Below are positions 39,001-60,000 of a DNA stretch of 64,000 bases, one piece after another. Within the stretch, counting starts at the first letter, position 1, and each line of letters begins with the position of its first letter. Position numbers: made by a program. Location of the stretch: NCBI GenBank assembly GCA_037443545.1, contig JBBIOD010000005.1, positions 15,210 to 79,209 of the forward strand. Reading direction: 5' to 3'. The stretch is from Ignavibacteriales bacterium (lineage in GTDB: Bacteria; Bacteroidota; Ignavibacteria; UBA10030; BY39).

Positions 39001-42000
39001 CGAGCATAATCAGATTATCGGTATAAATTTCTGTAACATATTTCTTTTTTCCATCTTTATCATCGTAACTGCGCGTTCGTATGTTTCCTTCGATATAAAC
39101 CTTTTGTCCTTTTTTTAGCCATTCTCCACAAACTTCAGCTAATTTATTCCATGCTATGATATTATGCCATTCAGTTCTTTCTTGCACTACCCCTTCAGTA
39201 TTTTTCCAACTGTCTGTTGTGGCAATAGAAAATGAAGCCACGGCTGTCCCGTTCGCTGTGTATCGAAGCTCAGGATCTTTTCCAAGATTTCCGATGAGCA
39301 TTACTTTATTTAAACTTTTTGATGCCATAATTTTTCTCTCCGTTTGTTAATGTTATTTGGATAAAAATAAATTTGTCGGACAAATCAACATTATTTTGTT
39401 GGTTAATATATATAGTTTATCTTGAAATATTTTCACATCGGTCATTCGATTTTGTGATGGTAATTGAAAATATTCCGCGATATTAATTTTGTTCAGCTGT
39501 TTGCCCTTGTGATTTAGAATCATCAATTCGTCGCCCATAACAATATAAATTTCTTTTTCGGATAAACAAAAAGCACGAACCGATTGGGGGGAGTCCAACT
39601 GAAGGGAATGTAAAAATGTACCCCAATGATCATAAACGGATATTTTATTCGATTCTAAAACATATAATTTATTGTCGTTTGTTGTAGCAATTTGAATGGG
39701 ATGGGGTACTAACCGATAATCCCCGATGATCCTAACATCTTTAATCTGAAACCCGTCGAATGTAATTTTCATAATATTCTTATTTTCAGAATCGTAATAA
39801 TATAGATTCGAAAACTTATCGACGGCTAAAAAAGAAGGCCGCCCAAAAGGAAAATTAGTGGATTGAAAAGACTCGCGTGACAATGAACTAATAAATTCTA
39901 AATTACGATTAAACCTTTGGATGCGATTGTTGTTATAATCAGAGACGAATATATTCAATCCATAAGAAGCATCAATTGCCACTGGTTTATCGAAATTTAA
40001 CTGCCCCCAACCGATGCCTCCTATTTCTTTTTGAAATTGATTTTGTGAATTATATTTAAAAAGTTTATAGTTTTCTTTATCTAGGATATAAATATTACCT
40101 TCGTAATCCATGGAAAATACTGACGATTCAGAGACCAATGTATCTATCTGAAAATATGAGTAACTAGAATCCTGGATGTACGAAAATGGATACAAGAAAG
40201 ATAATAAAATAGAATAGAATATCATTTCGTCAATCTGTCTAAAATATAAAAGGGTTGTTCTCAAAAAAAGAACAACCCTACTACCTTAAACTACTAAATT
40301 AAAAACCTATCATCACAGAAAACCATTGATTACCGGAAAAGAAAGTAGTAGAACGATATGCATAATCAACAGACATTTCAACCCCACTAATAATATATCG
40401 AACACCGGCACCGAAAGTGGGTCCAAAAATATTTTCAAATTCCGAGGGCACACCTTGGGCATAGGTATAACCACCTCTGATAAAGAACAAATTATTATAA
40501 GCATACTCAACACCAAAGCGATACTCATCATTTGAATAATTATTGTTTATAAACGTAGTGCTCATCTCTACTAAGTGTTCTGCCATTAGAGGATATTTGT
40601 AAGCAAGACCCAATTCTAAAGTTGTAGGCATACCGAATCCGGCAGTTCTGAGTCGCATTGGTTGAGCCGGATATCCGGCGATCTGATTCGGGTCCTCAAC
40701 AAATCTGTCAAAATCTGAACCATCAAAACGAATTTCTGATCCCAAGTTTTTGAGTGCCACTCCGAAGTTGAAGCCTGTTTCACCAGCTTTGTATTGTAAT
40801 CCTAGATCGAATGCAAAAGCTGTTGCTGATACACGTGTAATGGATTCGTGAACCATTTTGATATTCGTCCCAAAATGAATTCTATCAGTCATTCTACGAG
40901 AATAAGTTAAACCGACTGTCAGATATGTTGGGGAGTAAGTAATACCAGTTCCTTCTGGCCTATCAATAGTAGTTTCTTCGATTTTACCAAAAGATAGAGT
41001 TTTTAAACTCACGCCGAGGTGTCCTAAATCTTCCATATTTGCAGAAACTGCAAAATAATTAACTCCAATATCTGCAATATATGATAATTTAGAGAACATA
41101 ACCTGAGCAGTGAGATTGCTTCTTGATAAGCCAGCAGGATTCCAGTGTATAGCATCTAACCCTTGGGCAGTGGCTAAAATCGATCCACTCATCCCTACAC
41201 CGGTTGACCCTACAGGAATTAGTAATTCTGTTGCTCCAGCAGTTCCTCGACGATTAGGTGATCCTGCAAAACTATTTGATGTGAATGATATAATGATGGC
41301 TACAACTAATATTAAGTGTAATAATTTCGATCTTTTCATGACTTTTTTCCTTATACTTTCATTTTAGAATGTGTCAAGACGTTCTTCTTGTATAAATATG
41401 GCAAACTTCAACACCTTTTCACCTATCTTCGCTTCTCCCCCATGCTCATCAAGTCCGTATCCCTCAATATGTGCGATATACATTCCACTCGCTACAGGAA
41501 TATTGGCGTGATTTTTTATATTCCAACGTGTAGAGCTGTTATCCATTCGTCCTTGGTAGTCATGATTTACAACCGCTATCATATCACCAGCTAAATTAAA
41601 AATTCTAATCTTAGCTCTGGGAGGAAGATTGGTAAAAGTAACATAATTATCAAATGGATCAGCCTGCAACTGATGCGATGCATAGTACGGATTAGGGACA
41701 ATTTTAATTTTGTGCATCTCATCGCGTTGTTTTGCTATTGCTGAAAATCCTGTTTGAGGAGCTTTAACTTCGAAGTCAAAAGATTTATCTGTATTCAAAG
41801 CGTAATTCGGTCGAATTGATAAAACATCTCCCTCAGCAAAATTTGATTCGTTCGTTAATTTACGCATTCCTAATATGTAACTTAAAGGTAATGTTTGAAA
41901 TACTTCTCGATAGTCAATATCTCGTCTGATGTATTCTGATTTTGCAGTATCAGTATATGAAGAGCGGAATATCAAAATCACTTCATCACCATCAGTATGG

Positions 42001-57000: not shown

Positions 57001-60000
57001 ACTCATCGCCAAAATCAGGATCGACACGGCGGAAGTAACGATCTTGATAGGAAAGTGCTACTTCGTAGAAAGTTTTTGGATTAACAACGTGTGTAAATCT
57101 GAAATTAGCAAATCCGGCTGTATTGTGATCGATACGCGAGCGTTTATTGAAATAGCGAGTTAAAGCAGTCGGCCACCTGTTATCGAAGGGTGATTTATCG
57201 TAAGTATAACTACCAGAGAGTTTGAACTTCATCGATTCAAACTCATAATTTAGGTTGCCTTGTGTTGAATAATTTTGAAGCCAGTTTCCCGGTATGTAAT
57301 TTTTCTTGAACTCAATAGGACCTGGCAAAGAACGACCAGGTACAGGATCATTAATATCTGTAACGATGTTCTCGAATCTGAAAGGTTCGATGAACCTGTA
57401 GCTGCGATTTCTAATAAATTGATGTTGACCGGCTATGAAAAATTTTAAATTCTTCATTACCGGACCACTTAAGGTTGCAACCAAATTGGTGAAACCAAAC
57501 GATGATGAACCCAAATAATCTCCACCGGGTTTAGCGAGGTTATCAGTGAGAAAATCGAACGAGCCTTTGTAGTTGCTTTGACCTGTTCGCAGAGTTGTGC
57601 GTGCAATACCTGAGTTTGCACCGCCGAATTCAGCAGTATAACCACCGGCTTGCAATTGAAGTTCTTCAACAGCTTCCTGAATTACCGAAAAAGTTTGTGA
57701 ATTTGTAATTGGATTTGTTGTAGAAGCGCCATCCACAAAATATGCAATCTCGCCAGAACGTCCACCGCGTACATAAAGTTGGTTATCTTGATCTACCACA
57801 CCAGCTTGCAGACTCAAAATATTTTCGAGTCCACGGATGGGGAGATTCCTGATGTCTTCTTGCGTTGTAACGCGGACTGTGTTGGTTGTGTTCCGTTGAA
57901 TAAGCGGGCGTTCGGCAATAATTTCAACAGCGTCAACCTGAACGGCTTCGCTTAATAATTGAAAATTTTGTGTGGTTGTTACGTTCGATAGGATCCGAAC
58001 GTTAGAAATTGTTACTGAAGCATAACCGACATAGGATGCCTTAATGCTGTATGTTCCTGGCGGAACACTTAGAACAAAAAACTCACCATTGATATCGCTT
58101 GCTGCACCCATCATGGTGCCTTCGAGAGACACTGTTGCACCAATCAGGGGCTCACCGTTTGTTTTATCGGTGATGATGCCTCGTAACTTACCATCTTGAG
58201 CAGATGTAACAACAGCGACCAATAGAATAGTGAGAAATAAACCTAGTAATTTTTTAATCATGATTTTAACCTCCTTATGTTATAGGTTGATTGTTGAGTT
58301 AAAAACATTGTAACGTTTAATGTGAATTCATTGAATGTTATGTTATACCAAAAAACAATTTGAATATTGATAAAATCTGTTACAAACTTCACGGAAAATA
58401 TAATGAATTAAAATGTATATGTCAAGTGTTTTATTAGATAAGAGCATTTTTTTTCATATAAATCAAGTACCCATAAAAATTTTAAACATATCTGTATGTT
58501 TTTCAAAACACTCTATTAACGATAATTGTTCCAAAAGATGTGAAAACGATTAAATAGAGCTATTTTTGAGTTGATTTTGGATTTTACCAAATAATTCGTT
58601 GCTTCCTGTGCCTATTAATGTTGAATATGGTAGGAGTTCCTTACAAAATTTGCCCATCAATAACCGATAGGTTTTTATCTGTTTAGCACGCTCGTTCTGT
58701 GTTAATTTATCAATTTTGTTTAAAATCATAAAATATGGAATTCTGAGGTAATTTACATATTCATTCATGATTTTGTCAGACTCAAGTGGTTCACGCCTCG
58801 CGTCTATTATGAGTATCGCTAAATTGATATTCAAATTAGATTGAAAAAAACTATCAATCATTTTTTTCCATTCTGCACTCTCTTTGCCCGATACTTTTGC
58901 ATAACCATAACCTGGTAAATCAACAAAATAAAATTCGTTGTTGATTAAATAATAATTTATTTGCCGTGTTTTTCCCGGTTCGTTGCTTGTGCGTGCCATT
59001 TTTATTTTGAGCAGTGAATTTATCAGAGATGATTTCCCAACGTTTGACCTACCGATAAAAACAACAAGTGGTTCTTCGGTTTTTGGGAATGAATATTTTT
59101 TGTTTCCCCCGCCAGTGGCTACAACATATTTTAATTCTACCTGATTCATTTCGATAGACCAATATAGAATTCTTTCCTTAAGAAACAAAAAAGCACAAAG
59201 TAGTTTCACCTTGTGCTTTTTAGAAAATCCATTTGATATTTTTTTTATTCTGCTTTTGTTCCAGTGGTTGCTTTCTTTTTTTCCGATTTTTTCCAACCCC
59301 GTTTTACTAATTTTGTTTTTTCGGCTGGCTTTGAAGTTTCTTTTCCTAAACCGTAATCAACGAGTTCAAGTAAACCCAACTGGGCTGCATCGCCTAAACG
59401 GTGCCCGAGTTTAATAATACGTGTATATCCACCGGGACGAGCTGCAACTTTCGGCGCAATTTCGCCGAAGAGTTCAATAACAACTTCTCTATCTTTAATA
59501 AAGCGAGCAATTTCTCTTCTTGCGTGCACATTTTTGGATGTGCCTTTTTCTTCAGTTGCTATAGCATTTTTGGCACGGGTTATTAATTTCTCCACGTATG
59601 GGCGAGCTTCTTTTGCCTTTGCCAAGGTTGTTGTAATTCTCTTATTTTTTAATAACGCTGTAGATAAAGAGATGAGCAATGCTTTTCTGTGGCTAGCTGT
59701 TCGTTTTAATTTTCTACCAGATTTTCTATGTCGCATAAATTCTTCCTGTTTATTCGTTTAAATATTTATCTACATCCATACCGAAAGTCAATCCGTATTC
59801 TTCAACAATTTCTGTAAGTTCCGACAACGATTTTCTGCCAAAATTTCGAAATTTAAGAAGCTCCGGAATATCACAACGCACGAGATCTCCTAATGTATGT
59901 ATATCACCCGAGAGAAGAACATTATGTGATCGAACTGAAAGTTCGAGATGATCAAGAGGAGTTTTTAAAATTTCCCTAATCCTGGCAACTTCAGCTTCCG

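What the first reader, a model, noticed from the sequence alone, without database searches (positions are those of the whole stretch)
39353..58261. Tandemly duplicated four-gene cassette: SusC-like TonB receptor, giant T9SS type-A cargo, PorV-like barrel and an accessory gene. It may be a SusD-less surface capture/uptake module.
Two paralogous cassettes sit head to tail on the minus strand. Cassette A is 58261-48229 and cassette B is 47998-39353. Each has the same gene order. First comes a ~1,000-aa SusC/RagA-like TonB-dependent receptor with a CarbopepD_reg N-terminal domain. Next comes a ~1,170-1,190-aa secreted protein that ends in a T9SS type-A sorting domain. Then comes a ~347-aa PorV/PorQ-like outer-membrane barrel with an HWNPAGL motif. 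Last comes one divergent accessory gene. In cassette A the accessory gene is a PIG-L-like plus GATase1-like fusion, and in cassette B it is an NHL beta-propeller. In canonical Bacteroidota PULs the TonB receptor's partner is a ~500-aa SusD lipoprotein. Here the partner position is taken by a protein that would be exported by T9SS, covalently attached to the cell surface, and accompanied by its own dedicated PorV-like shuttle or anchor barrel. Intergenic gaps inside each cassette are only 20-35 bp, which suggests each cassette is one operon. A roughly 290-bp AT-rich region precedes cassette A. This three-part partnership (TBDR + T9SS cargo + private PorV-like barrel), found twice, is not a described architecture as far as I know. 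It could be a new outer-membrane nutrient capture system.
Basis: partly seen in the sequence, partly recalled or inferred. Interest (0 to 1): 0.85.

Follow-up and report, generated by a model that had tools for sequence, protein, structure and literature searches.

The report
Conserved TonB-receptor / surface-protein / PorV-like operon
Two old tandem copies of a three-gene outer-membrane operon (a TonB-dependent transporter, a ~130-kDa secreted surface protein with an unusual type-IX-secretion tail, and a dedicated PorV/PorQ-family barrel) belong to a very large, uncharacterised gene set kept in the same order across many phyla related to Bacteroidota, and it probably forms a new kind of surface capture-and-uptake complex.

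The parts
58397..58425 (-). Sigma-70-like promoter of triad A (TTGACA-17-TATATT)
   Evidence: It matches 11 of 12 positions and is one of the two best sites in 39000-58800. It lies in the 288-bp, 24% GC region upstream of T_A.
55298..58261 (-). T_A: TonB-dependent transporter, 987 aa, Oar-type architecture (CarboxypepD_reg N-terminal extension + Plug + 22-strand-type barrel); not SusC/RagA
   Evidence: Pfam gives PF13620 64 bits, PF07715 30.8 bits and PF00593 95.4 bits. TIGR04056 gives only 66.5 bits against a cut-off of 368. A signal peptide is present.
51684..55268 (-). G_A: giant secreted protein, 1194 aa (the ATG at 55259 gives 1191 aa, as in P0001); no Pfam domain
   Evidence: The AF2 model has pLDDT 75. 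It has a signal peptide and no lipobox Cys.
53589..55136 (-). G_A conserved N-terminal module (about aa 45-560): galactose-mutarotase-like beta-supersandwich
51687..51989 (-). G_A variant T9SS-type CTD (about aa 1094-1184) plus conserved tail IIQEQEVPDVF-COOH
   Evidence: TIGR04183 gives 26.7 bits (cut-off 23) and the PorZ C-terminus 39.1 bits. In the family, 32/32 members hit the PorZ C-terminus and 31/32 hit TIGR04183. The tail is present in about 205 of 240 homologs.
50606..51652 (-). V_A: PorV/PorQ-family outer-membrane barrel, 348 aa
   Evidence: NF033709 gives 138.6 bits (cut-off 90); the PorQ (83.8) and PorV (61.9) models stay below their equivalog cut-offs. It matches PDB 6h3i_F PorV at E 1.2e-8.
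50553..50578 (-). Intrinsic terminator after V_A
   Evidence: An 11-bp stem followed by a T-run; -17.2 kcal/mol, z -5.3.
48229..50511 (-). P: secreted PIG-L/LmbE-fold + beta domains + GATase1/ThuA-like-fold protein, 760 aa; a conserved neighbour outside the triad operon
48147..48175 (-). Sigma-70-like promoter of triad B (TTGACA-17-TATATT)
   Evidence: It matches 11 of 12 positions and lies in the 230-bp, 24% GC gap.
44876..47998 (-). T_B: TonB-dependent transporter, 1040 aa, paralog of T_A
   Evidence: Pfam gives PF13715 74.1, PF07715 42.3, PF00593 94.5 and PF25183 54.5 bits. TIGR04056 gives 84.3 bits against 368. It is 31-41% identical to T_A.
41364..44849 (-). G_B: giant secreted protein, 1161 aa, paralog of G_A; ends ...IFIQEERLDTF
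   Evidence: It is 26% identical to G_A over the full length, E 5e-79. Its own orthologs are 56-83% identical and sit at the same locus in L091.
41367..41714 (-). G_B variant CTD plus tail
   Evidence: It aligns with the G_A CTD (PNPYYA ... RIFNLAG ... PVASGMYIAH ... K.LKFAI). It has only a weak PorZ C-terminus hit (22.6 bits) and no TIGR04183 hit.
40299..41339 (-). V_B: PorV/PorQ-family barrel, 346 aa
   Evidence: NF033709 gives 170.6 bits. It is 43% identical to V_A.
40251..40279 (-). Intrinsic terminator after V_B
   Evidence: A 12-bp stem followed by a T-run; -22.4 kcal/mol, z -6.4.
39353..40264 (-). N: NHL-repeat protein (303 aa from TTG; the likely true start is the ATG at about 40225); a conserved neighbour that precedes ssb
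   Evidence: PF01436 gives 32.3 bits. The order P-N-ssb follows a single triad in L003, L007 and other loci.

Best explanation
The region holds two anciently diverged tandem copies of a three-gene operon, T-G-V. T is a TonB-dependent transporter with a CarboxypepD_reg N-terminal extension. G is a 1,150-1,190-aa Sec-exported non-lipoprotein. V is a 14-strand PorV/PorQ-family barrel. Two separate conserved neighbour genes follow: a PIG-L/GATase1-like fusion and an NHL protein.

Proposed mechanism. G reaches the cell surface by means of its T9SS-type C-terminal domain. Unlike ordinary cargo, G keeps this variant CTD, which carries a conserved acidic tail ending in Phe/Tyr. The CTD docks non-covalently on the dedicated V barrel, in the way PorZ sits on PorQ and PorU sits on PorV. 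This places G's N-terminal galactose-mutarotase-like supersandwich and its FN3/Ig-like stalk beside T. There G captures a macromolecular substrate, either a glycan or possibly a peptide or protein, and T imports it using TonB energy. Functionally the complex would be the counterpart of SusCD, RagAB or BtuBG complexes, for FCB lineages in which the surface partner is a CTD protein on a private barrel rather than a SusD-type lipoprotein.

Shown here: gene content, operon signals, paralogy, conservation of gene order, family memberships, folds, and the correlation between the tail and V. Inferred: surface location, retention and docking of the CTD, contact with T, direction of transport, and the substrate.
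For: Operon structure. The two best promoter-like sites lie exactly upstream of each T gene and strong terminators lie directly after each V gene. Gaps inside the triads are 24-31 bp.

Conservation. In 84 non-redundant related loci, T lies upstream of G on the same strand in 77 loci and V lies downstream in 63; the remaining loci are mostly cut by contig ends. The lineages, as labelled by depositors, are Ignavibacteria, KSB1, Marinimicrobia, Latescibacterota, Gemmatimonadetes, Calditrichota, Kryptonia, Handelsmanbacteria, Fidelibacterota and Eisenbacteria. The G family has 2,805 cluster representatives at 50% identity with E<=1e-30.

Family membership. V proteins from 10 lineages all pass NF033709 (127-190 bits). 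T has Plug and barrel domains above the Pfam cut-offs.

The CTD. All 32 aligned G proteins match the C-terminal ~90 positions of the PorZ model, 31 of 32 match TIGR04183, and 11 of 32 match PorU. PorZ and PorU are the T9SS proteins whose CTDs are retained and bound to PorQ and PorV; a review proposes that cognate PorV-like barrels protect CTDs from cleavage (PMC10202324).

Tail and barrel. In the loci, 62 giants with the acidic/aromatic tail have V directly downstream and only 2 do not. Giants without V have altered tails. Paralogs that share the N-terminal module at 54-57% identity but end in a canonical CTD (...KKMVLIR) stand alone, with no T or V, in both contexts examined.

Gene order. A TBDT gene followed by its surface-partner gene is the arrangement of known Bacteroidota import complexes (established knowledge; PMC12578637).
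Against: No physical interaction, localisation or transport has been tested. The presence of a T9SS in this genome could not be checked from the 64-kb window. The CTD match is marginal for G_A (26.7 vs 23) and fails for G_B. The preference for PorQ over PorV is mixed among orthologs (6 vs 4). The correlation between tail and V is confounded by subfamily relatedness. The supersandwich fold also occurs in non-carbohydrate contexts such as YidC P1. Some paralog loci sit among M1, M61 and M2 peptidases, so the substrate class is open. Very high conservation (about 50% identity across phyla) and a fixed position beside the rpoA-rplQ operon are unusual for a nutrient-specific uptake locus. They would suit a housekeeping envelope role equally well.
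Confidence: 0.45

Rival explanations
1. The triad is a TonB-powered secretion and anchoring device. T acts as the outer-membrane exporter for G, as the TBDT Oar does for protease PopC in Myxococcus. The variant CTD and its tail are the targeting signal, and V receives and anchors G. This would make the triad a self-contained system that does not depend on the T9SS.
For: T has exactly the Oar architecture of CarboxypepD_reg + Plug + barrel (PMC6434023), and TBDT-dependent protein secretion has a precedent. The variant CTD and tail occur only with T and V, whereas paralogs with a canonical CTD need neither. All three genes form one operon.
Against: The Oar architecture is shared by SusC-type importers and is the dominant TBDT architecture in Bacteroidetes, so it is not diagnostic. 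A 130-kDa multidomain protein would have to pass a plugged 22-strand barrel unfolded. The CTD keeps all type-A motifs and scores on TIGR04183 in 31 of 32 members, which suggests normal recognition by the T9SS. An Eisenbacteria locus has a PorU-like C25 peptidase with a CTD next to the triad.
Confidence: 0.12
2. The triad is a housekeeping envelope module. G would be a major structural surface or coat protein, or an outer-membrane biogenesis or tethering factor. T and V would act mainly as membrane anchors, and no specific nutrient would be imported.
For: G orthologs are about 50% identical across phyla and about 36-50% identical even in the most distant lineages. The family is huge. The locus keeps a fixed position next to rpsM-rpsK-rpsD-rpoA-rplQ-GTPase in many Ignavibacteria. 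Triad A has higher GC (0.41-0.42) than the window mean of 0.378, similar to the ribosomal genes, and near-consensus promoters. FadL/PorV-type barrels do serve as structural subunits elsewhere, for example BamG in Bacteroidota BAM (PMC12578637).
Against: T retains Plug and barrel domains above threshold and a TonB-box-like segment by eye (EVVISAERP), which argues for real gated transport. The triad has been duplicated and has diverged repeatedly, as substrate-specific uptake loci typically do. The middle third of G is variable.
Confidence: 0.2
3. G is ordinary T9SS type-A cargo: PorU removes its CTD and G is then covalently attached to a surface glycolipid. V acts only as a private shuttle.
For: TIGR04183 is met for G_A and for 31 of 32 family members. 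NCBI names the family 'T9SS type A sorting domain-containing protein'.
Against: The CTD is atypical: it has an insertion and a conserved 10-residue tail, fails Pfam PF18962, and fails all type-A models in G_B. It scores better on the C-termini of PorZ and PorU, which are retained. A cargo-specific barrel encoded next to the cargo gene is the pattern seen for non-cleaved CTDs, as in PorZ/PorQ and type-B cargo with PorP/SprF. Paralogs with a canonical CTD have no private barrel.
Confidence: 0.15
4. The adjacency of unrelated outer-membrane genes is coincidental.
For: None beyond the general abundance of TBDR and CTD genes in FCB genomes.
Against: The order T-G-V on one strand recurs across about ten phylum-level lineages and in more than 60 loci. 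The triad is duplicated as a unit. Operon signals bracket it.
Confidence: 0.01

Closest known systems
SusC/SusD-type (also RagAB, BtuB-BtuG) TBDT-surface partner uptake complexes of Bacteroidota
   Same: The TBDT gene is directly followed by the gene for a surface-exposed partner in one operon. The TBDT has a CarboxypepD_reg N-terminal extension. Such loci are repeatedly duplicated and diverge.
   Different: The TBDT fails the SusC/RagA model (66 and 84 bits against 368). The partner is not a ~500-aa TPR-type SusD lipoprotein: it is a ~1,170-aa all-beta protein with no lipobox and a CTD. A third gene, a PorV/PorQ-family barrel, is obligatory. The system lies in non-Bacteroidia FCB lineages. 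No glycoside hydrolase or regulator genes are attached.
PorZ-PorQ and PorU-PorV pairs of the T9SS attachment complex (Porphyromonas gingivalis)
   Same: A CTD-bearing surface protein is held on a PorV/PorQ-family barrel through an uncleaved CTD. The CTD of G scores best on the C-terminal part of the PorZ model, and 11 of 32 members also hit PorU. V is a bona fide member of the PorV/PorQ family.
   Different: G has no beta-propellers (unlike PorZ) and no C25 peptidase domain or invariant Cys/His (unlike PorU). V does not reach the PorV or PorQ equivalog scores. The genes are co-operonic with a TBDT. The CTD has an extra conserved acidic/aromatic tail.
Type-B CTD cargo with dedicated PorP/SprF barrels (e.g. 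SprB-SprF in Flavobacterium johnsoniae)
   Same: The cargo-specific outer-membrane barrel is encoded immediately downstream of its large surface cargo, and the CTD is thought not to be cleaved.
   Different: Here the CTD is a type-A derivative, not type B. The barrel belongs to the PorV/PorQ family, not PorP/SprF (there is no TIGR03519 hit for V_A or V_B). A TBDT is part of the unit.
Oar TBDT / PopC secretion (Myxococcus xanthus)
   Same: The TBDT has the same domain architecture (CarboxypepD_reg + Plug + barrel), and this is a precedent for a TBDT that acts on a protein.
   Different: Oar and popC are not co-operonic as far as I know. No PorV-like barrel or CTD is involved, and the phylum is different. 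A homology closer than the shared architecture was not tested.
BamG-BamH in the Bacteroidota BAM complex
   Same: A 14-strand FadL/PorV-type barrel packs against a larger barrel and holds a surface protein through its extracellular loops.
   Different: V scores on the PorV/PorQ model, not BamG (only a 25-bit trace in one ortholog). The partner barrel is a TBDT, not BamA. The surface protein is not a lipoprotein.

Membership tests
SusC/RagA TonB-linked outer membrane protein (TIGR04056) | Whole-protein score at or above the curated cut-off (368.25 bits), with the match spanning the barrel | tested here: not met
   The scores are 66.5 bits (T_A) and 84.3 bits (T_B). Only model positions 2-144 and 2-207 are matched.
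SusC/SusD-type PUL | A SusD/RagB-family lipoprotein gene lies adjacent to the TBDT gene | tested here: not met
   The downstream genes have no Pfam domain at all and no lipobox. The flanking genes are ribosomal, GTPase, SSB, CNNM and S49 peptidase genes.
TonB-dependent transporter (generic) | Plug domain (PF07715) and 22-strand barrel (PF00593) above the Pfam gathering scores | tested here: met
   Plug scores 30.8 and 42.3 bits (cut-off 23.9). The barrel scores 95.4 and 94.5 bits (cut-off 27).
TonB-dependent transporter (generic) | A functional TonB box between the N-terminal extension and the plug | tested here: inconclusive
   TonB-box-like segments are visible by eye (T_A ...DAVEIIAERP..., T_B ...KEVVISAERP...). 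No model or experiment was applied.
Oar-type TBDT architecture | CarboxypepD_reg (PF13620/PF13715) N-terminal extension + Plug + barrel | tested here: met
   PF13620 scores 64 and 53.1 bits; PF13715 scores 60.6 and 74.1 bits. The definition is taken from PMC6434023. The architecture is shared with SusC-type importers, so it does not reveal the direction of transport.
T9SS type-A C-terminal sorting domain (TIGR04183 / PF18962) | HMM score above the curated cut-off | tested here: inconclusive
   G_A scores 26.7 bits on TIGR04183 against 23 (met) but 15.1 bits on PF18962 against 27 (not met). G_B has no hit on either model. In the family, 31 of 32 members hit TIGR04183 at E<1e-3.
T9SS type-A cargo | T9SS core genes (SprA, GldKLMN, PorU, PorV) are present in the same genome, and the CTD is cleaved and the protein attached | not testable with these tools
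   Only a 64-kb window is available. One other CTD-type protein lies in the window (345-1496, FlgD_ig 33.7 bits). TIGR04183 is reported as restricted to the FCB superphylum (PMC4737851).
PorV/PorQ family (NF033709) | Score at or above 90 bits over the full length | tested here: met
   V_A scores 138.6 and V_B 170.6 bits. Ten orthologs from ten lineages score 127-190 bits.
PorV (NF033710), PorQ (NF033711), PorV2 (NF052325) equivalogs | Score at or above the equivalog cut-offs (250 / 220 / 325 bits) | tested here: not met
   The best scores are 61.9-67.5 bits (PorV), 80.8-83.8 bits (PorQ) and 56-79 bits (PorV2). The same holds for the orthologs. V is therefore a separate subfamily.
PIG-L / LmbE zinc de-N-acetylase (PF02585, CE14) | The fold, plus conserved His/Asp/His zinc ligands (AHPDD ... 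HxxH) | tested here: not met
Class I glutamine amidotransferase-like / ThuA-like fold | The fold; for true GATases, also a Cys-His-Glu triad | tested here: inconclusive
NHL repeat protein | PF01436 above the gathering score | tested here: met
   It scores 32.3 bits against 20, with one repeat detected.

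The most novel reading that the evidence does not exclude
The T-G-V triad is an autonomous, TonB-energised protein export and display machine. The Oar-type TBDT would be the translocon for the giant protein, and the variant CTD with its acidic/aromatic C-terminal tail would be the signal for it. The PorV/PorQ-like barrel would extract and anchor the giant, as PorV does at the SprA translocon. This would be a second, simpler relative of type IX secretion, spread across the FCB superphylum.
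Probability: 0.12. Interest if true: 0.92.

Novelty: new variant of a known kind. Interest (0 to 1): 0.72.

Why it matters
Outside the class Bacteroidia it is poorly understood how FCB bacteria place partner proteins on the cell surface beside their TonB-dependent transporters. These bacteria include Ignavibacteria, Marinimicrobia, Latescibacterota, KSB1, Calditrichota and Gemmatimonadota, which are abundant degraders in sediments, oceans and bioreactors. This operon suggests an answer that does not use lipoproteins: a CTD protein parked on its own PorV-family barrel. Three things would follow. First, it would extend the 'cognate PorV-like barrel protects a retained CTD' idea from the T9SS machinery itself (PorZ/PorQ, PorU/PorV) to a working cargo. 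Second, it would define a very large protein family (about 2,800 clusters at 50% identity, no Pfam domain) together with a new C-terminal signal. Third, it would give a concrete three-protein complex for structural and genetic tests in cultivable relatives. If the transporter proves to be the exporter, this would be a new secretion route.

Tried and rejected
- SusC/PUL assignment: rejected by the TIGR04056 scores and the absence of SusD.
- Four-gene cassette: rejected. The accessory genes are unrelated to each other, lie beyond terminators, and both follow a single triad in relatives.
- G as a PorU-like sortase: rejected. There is no C25 domain and no invariant Cys or His. The Foldseek hits to PorZ and PorU are weak, have very low TM-scores and probably come from the CTD/Ig-like parts.
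- G as a glycoside hydrolase or phosphorylase: not supported. Only the non-catalytic N-domain fold of those enzymes is matched, and the model is almost all-beta with no (alpha/alpha)6 domain.
- Sequence search of the G profile against PDB: no hit.
- PIG-L protein as an active GlcNAc deacetylase that processes imported sugars: weakened by the missing zinc ligands.
- V as specifically PorQ-like: not upheld, because orthologs split 6 to 4 between PorQ and PorV.
- Riboswitch or other known RNA in the ~110-130-nt leaders: none found. Rfam finds only a tRNA at 7072-7145, and the two leaders share little beyond the promoter and the Shine-Dalgarno sequence.
- A/B typing of triads in other loci was uninformative, because all loci were fetched with the A-type query.
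- Source organism: the look-up of the 100%-identical protein P0001 failed.
- Literature searches for the triad, for PorV-like barrels with TBDTs and for GWxTD found nothing relevant.

Full report
OBSERVATION

The ORF listing finds all eight minus-strand ORFs exactly where the finding places them.
- Cassette A: T_A 55298-58261 (987 aa), G_A 51684-55268 (1194 aa), V_A 50606-51652 (348 aa), P 48229-50511 (760 aa).
- Cassette B: T_B 44876-47998 (1040 aa), G_B 41364-44849 (1161 aa), V_B 40299-41339 (346 aa), N 39353-40264 (303 aa).

Pairwise BLASTP shows real but old paralogy for three of the four positions. T is 31-41% identical (E 2e-71), G is 26% identical over the whole length (E 5e-79), and V is 43% identical (E 4e-89). 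The fourth genes are unrelated to each other.

The gaps inside T-G-V are 24-31 bp. The V_A-P gap is 94 bp and the P-T_B gap is 230 bp. The 288-bp and 230-bp regions upstream of the two T genes have 24% GC.

The two best sigma-70-like sites in the 19.8-kb region (TTGACA-17-TATATT, 11 of 12 positions) lie precisely in those two upstream regions. The two strongest terminator-like hairpins lie directly after V_A and V_B. They fold at -17.2 and -22.4 kcal/mol, with z-scores of -5.3 and -6.4 against shuffles. The transcription and duplication unit is therefore the three-gene T-G-V triad, not a four-gene cassette.

WHAT THE PROTEINS ARE

T. Both T proteins have CarboxypepD_reg, Plug and TonB_dep_Rec barrel domains above the Pfam thresholds. 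They fail the SusC/RagA model badly: TIGR04056 gives 66.5 and 84.3 bits against a cut-off of 368, and only the N-terminal 144-207 model positions match. The architecture is the 'Oar architecture' defined in PMC6434023. That paper says it also dominates among Bacteroidetes TBDTs.

V. Both V proteins pass the PorV/PorQ family model NF033709 (138.6 and 170.6 bits; cut-off 90), but none of the PorV, PorQ or PorV2 equivalog models. V_A matches the solved F. johnsoniae PorV chain 6h3i_F (E 1.2e-8).

G. G has no Pfam domain, has a signal peptide and has no lipobox cysteine.
- Its C-terminus is a derivative of the T9SS type-A CTD. G_A scores 26.7 bits on TIGR04183 (cut-off 23) but 39.1 bits on the last ~90 positions of the PorZ model. 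G_B scores only 22.6 bits on PorZ and nothing on TIGR04183. Pfam Por_Secre_tail is sub-threshold.
- In an alignment of 32 family members (A1), all 32 hit the PorZ C-terminus, 31 hit TIGR04183 and 11 hit PorU.
- The alignment has no invariant Cys or His. The N-terminal ~720 residues and the CTD are highly conserved, and the middle part is variable.
- An AF2 model (pLDDT 75, pTM 0.59) is almost entirely beta. Foldseek finds only weak hits to PorZ, FN3 arrays and GH N-domains.
- The profile has no sequence hit in PDB.

N. N has an NHL repeat.

CONTEXT AND CONSERVATION

The region lies between rpsM-rpsK-rpsD-rpoA-rplQ-GTPase and ssb-CNNM-S49 peptidase, and no SusD-like gene is nearby. The rest of the window that I scanned is housekeeping.

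G_A has at least 1,370 homologs in the word-indexed search. Many are about 50% identical over the full length. None carries a Pfam domain apart from a few CTD-type or other isolated hits. When named at all they are called 'T9SS type A sorting domain-containing protein'. A full HMMER scan with the A1 profile finds 2,805 cluster representatives at 50% identity with E<=1e-30.

The depositors' labels for these genomes cover Ignavibacteria, KSB1, Marinimicrobia, Latescibacterota, Gemmatimonadetes, Calditrichota, Kryptonia, Handelsmanbacteria and Fidelibacterota, plus Eisenbacteria.

Gene neighbourhoods from the gene-call index and my own tblastn and ORF clustering over 84 non-redundant loci give these counts:
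- T upstream of G on the same strand: 77 loci.
- V downstream of G: 63 loci. Most of the rest are cut by contig ends or masked by spurious antisense ORFs.
- The PIG-L fusion after V: 30 loci.
- A GWxTD-domain protein after V or P: 22 loci.
- NHL: 15 loci. SSB: 14 loci.

Several Ignavibacteria have rpoA-rplQ-GTPase-...-T-G-V-PIGL-NHL-SSB with a single triad (L003, L007, L029, L035-L037, L086). The window is therefore that arrangement with a second triad inserted between PIG-L and NHL. Tandem triads recur elsewhere (L004, L008, L076, L084, L091). G_B has its own orthologs (56-83% identity), and in L091 one sits at the same position before NHL-...-SSB-...-CNNM-S49. The duplication therefore predates this species.

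THE CTD VARIANT AND THE PRIVATE BARREL

About 205 of the 240 homologs fetched by the two searches with G_A and G_B end in a conserved extension after the last CTD strand. Its consensus is A-[IV]-[IF]-x-E-x-E-..-[DN]-x-[FY]-COOH: G_A ends in AIIQEQEVPDVF and G_B in IFIQEERLDTF. Another 33 homologs end like canonical type-A CTDs (...KKMVLIR).

The canonical-CTD proteins form a subfamily. They share the N-terminal ~470 residues with G_B at 54-57% identity but carry proper PF18962/PF13860 domains. In both contexts examined they stand alone, with neither T nor V nearby (L088 beside an M1 peptidase, L090 beside another CTD protein and an M2 peptidase).

In the loci, 62 giants with the acidic/aromatic tail have V directly downstream, and only two do not; those two lie inside tandem giant arrays. 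Giants without V (L033, L042, L043, L045, L059, L062, L064) have altered tails. The observations are not phylogenetically independent, but the pattern is consistent with the variant CTD and tail being the element that goes with V.

The T9SS literature gives a precedent. The CTDs of PorU and PorZ are not removed and remain bound to PorV and PorQ. A review proposes that cognate PorV-like barrels protect CTDs from cleavage, as also suggested for type-B cargo with PorP/SprF barrels (PMC10202324).

MECHANISM

Best reading (confidence about 0.45). T-G-V is an outer-membrane uptake complex. The surface partner G is delivered through its CTD and parked non-covalently on its own PorV/PorQ-family barrel V beside the TBDT T. 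G's supersandwich and FN3/Ig-like ectodomain captures a polymer, and T imports the products using TonB.
- Shown: the operon, the paralogy, the cross-phylum synteny, the family memberships, the folds, and the correlation between tail and V.
- Inferred: localisation, docking, contact with T, direction of transport, and the substrate.

The substrate class is open. The fold argues for glycans. Paralog loci sit among M1, M61 and M2 peptidases. The PIG-L-like neighbour probably cannot deacetylate.

Rivals.
- (a) T is the exporter of G, as Oar is for PopC. Confidence about 0.12.
- (b) The triad is a housekeeping envelope or coat module. This is suggested by the unusually high conservation, the fixed position next to the ribosomal operon, the near-consensus promoters and the above-average GC of triad A. 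Confidence about 0.2.
- (c) G is ordinary cleaved and covalently attached cargo, and V is a private shuttle. Confidence about 0.15.
- (d) The adjacency is chance. This is refuted.

COMPARISON WITH WHAT IS KNOWN, AND NOVELTY

Functionally the closest systems are the SusCD, RagAB and BtuBG complexes. Membership in SusC/SusD is tested and not met. For anchoring, the closest are PorZ-PorQ, PorU-PorV and SprB-SprF. V is a member of the PorV/PorQ family but belongs to none of its named equivalogs. BamG-BamH is a structural analogy for a FadL-type barrel that holds a surface protein next to a larger barrel (PMC12578637).

Nine full-text searches found no description of a TBDT + CTD protein + PorV-like operon, of this protein family, or of the GWxTD neighbour (one search retrieved only the Oar work). 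Absence from this library does not prove that the system is undescribed.

I rate it a new variant of known kinds: a TBDT with a surface partner, combined with a cognate PorV-like barrel for a retained CTD. The combination is new, the phylogenetic spread is very wide, and the rival reading as an export machine has high upside.

LIMITS

Nothing here tests protein-protein contact, localisation or transport. The presence of a T9SS in this genome could not be checked. The AF2 confidence for G is moderate, and it is low in residues 817-870 and in parts of 913-1048. The lineage names are the depositors' labels. The source organism of the window could not be retrieved; its closest relatives are Ignavibacteria-type MAGs.

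Noticed in passing
window 48229-50511 (-): The PIG-L/GATase1-like protein has the PIG-L fold but no invariant His anywhere in 14 homologs; the AHPDD motif reads KPG[YFA]ED. It is likely a pseudo-enzyme or uses different chemistry. This copy diverges fast: it is about 35% identical to orthologs outside its close relatives, and its gene has only 32% GC.
   Followed up: partly
window 39353-40264 and 48229-50511 vs 50606-58261: Triad A genes have 41-42% GC, above the window mean of 37.8% and similar to the ribosomal genes. The two accessory genes have only 31-32% GC. This may reflect different expression levels or different evolutionary rates.
   Followed up: no
window 40225-40264 (-): The first possible start codon of the NHL ORF (TTG at 40264) lies inside the terminator hairpin of V_B. 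An internal ATG at about 40225 precedes a hydrophobic, signal-like segment (MIFYSILLSFLYPF) and is probably the true start.
   Followed up: no
L001, L014, L016, L022, L026, L028, L030, L032, L034, L036, L038, L040, L041, L060, L065, L069, L072, L079-L081, L084, L086 (directly after V or P): A ~458-aa GWxTD-domain protein (PF20094) follows the triad or the PIG-L gene in 22 of 84 loci from several phyla. It is absent from this window (tblastn finds nothing). No paper mentions GWxTD.
   Followed up: partly
L088:10001-13489, L090:6001-9501 (proteins P0134-P0162): A paralogous subfamily of ~1,160-aa proteins shares the N-terminal ~470 residues with G_B at 54-57% identity but has a canonical T9SS type-A CTD. 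It stands alone, without a TBDR or a PorV-like gene, next to an M1 or M2 peptidase.
   Followed up: partly
L042:2178-20731 and L059 (Ignavibacterium-type MAGs): These loci hold a T-G pair with no PorV-like gene. It is embedded among M61 and M1 aminopeptidase, TPR-protein, second M1 peptidase and DUF2339 genes, and its giant ends in an altered tail (KLAVIQPRVSPY). This hints that some family members act on peptides.
   Followed up: partly
L089:361-4032: In an Eisenbacteria MAG, a 1,223-aa Peptidase_C25 + Por_Secre_tail protein (PorU-like) lies two genes upstream of a T-G-V triad.
   Followed up: no
L091:14565-16531: In a related MAG, an extra PorV-like gene sits between the NHL gene and ssb, and a further 1,094-aa protein with no Pfam domain follows ssb. 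The triad region is a hotspot for gain of such genes.
   Followed up: no
window 345-1496 (+): This 383-aa protein has a Sortilin/Vps10 (BNR-like) region and an FlgD_ig C-terminal domain above threshold (33.7 bits). It is another CTD-type secreted protein, so the organism uses such C-terminal domains generally.
   Followed up: no
window 26933-28477 (-): This 514-aa protein has a borderline ORC-CDC6-like (PF24389) match of 29.6 bits against a cut-off of 27. That is unusual for a bacterial housekeeping region.
   Followed up: no
window 7072-7145 (+): A tRNA gene is the only Rfam family detected in the window.
   Followed up: no
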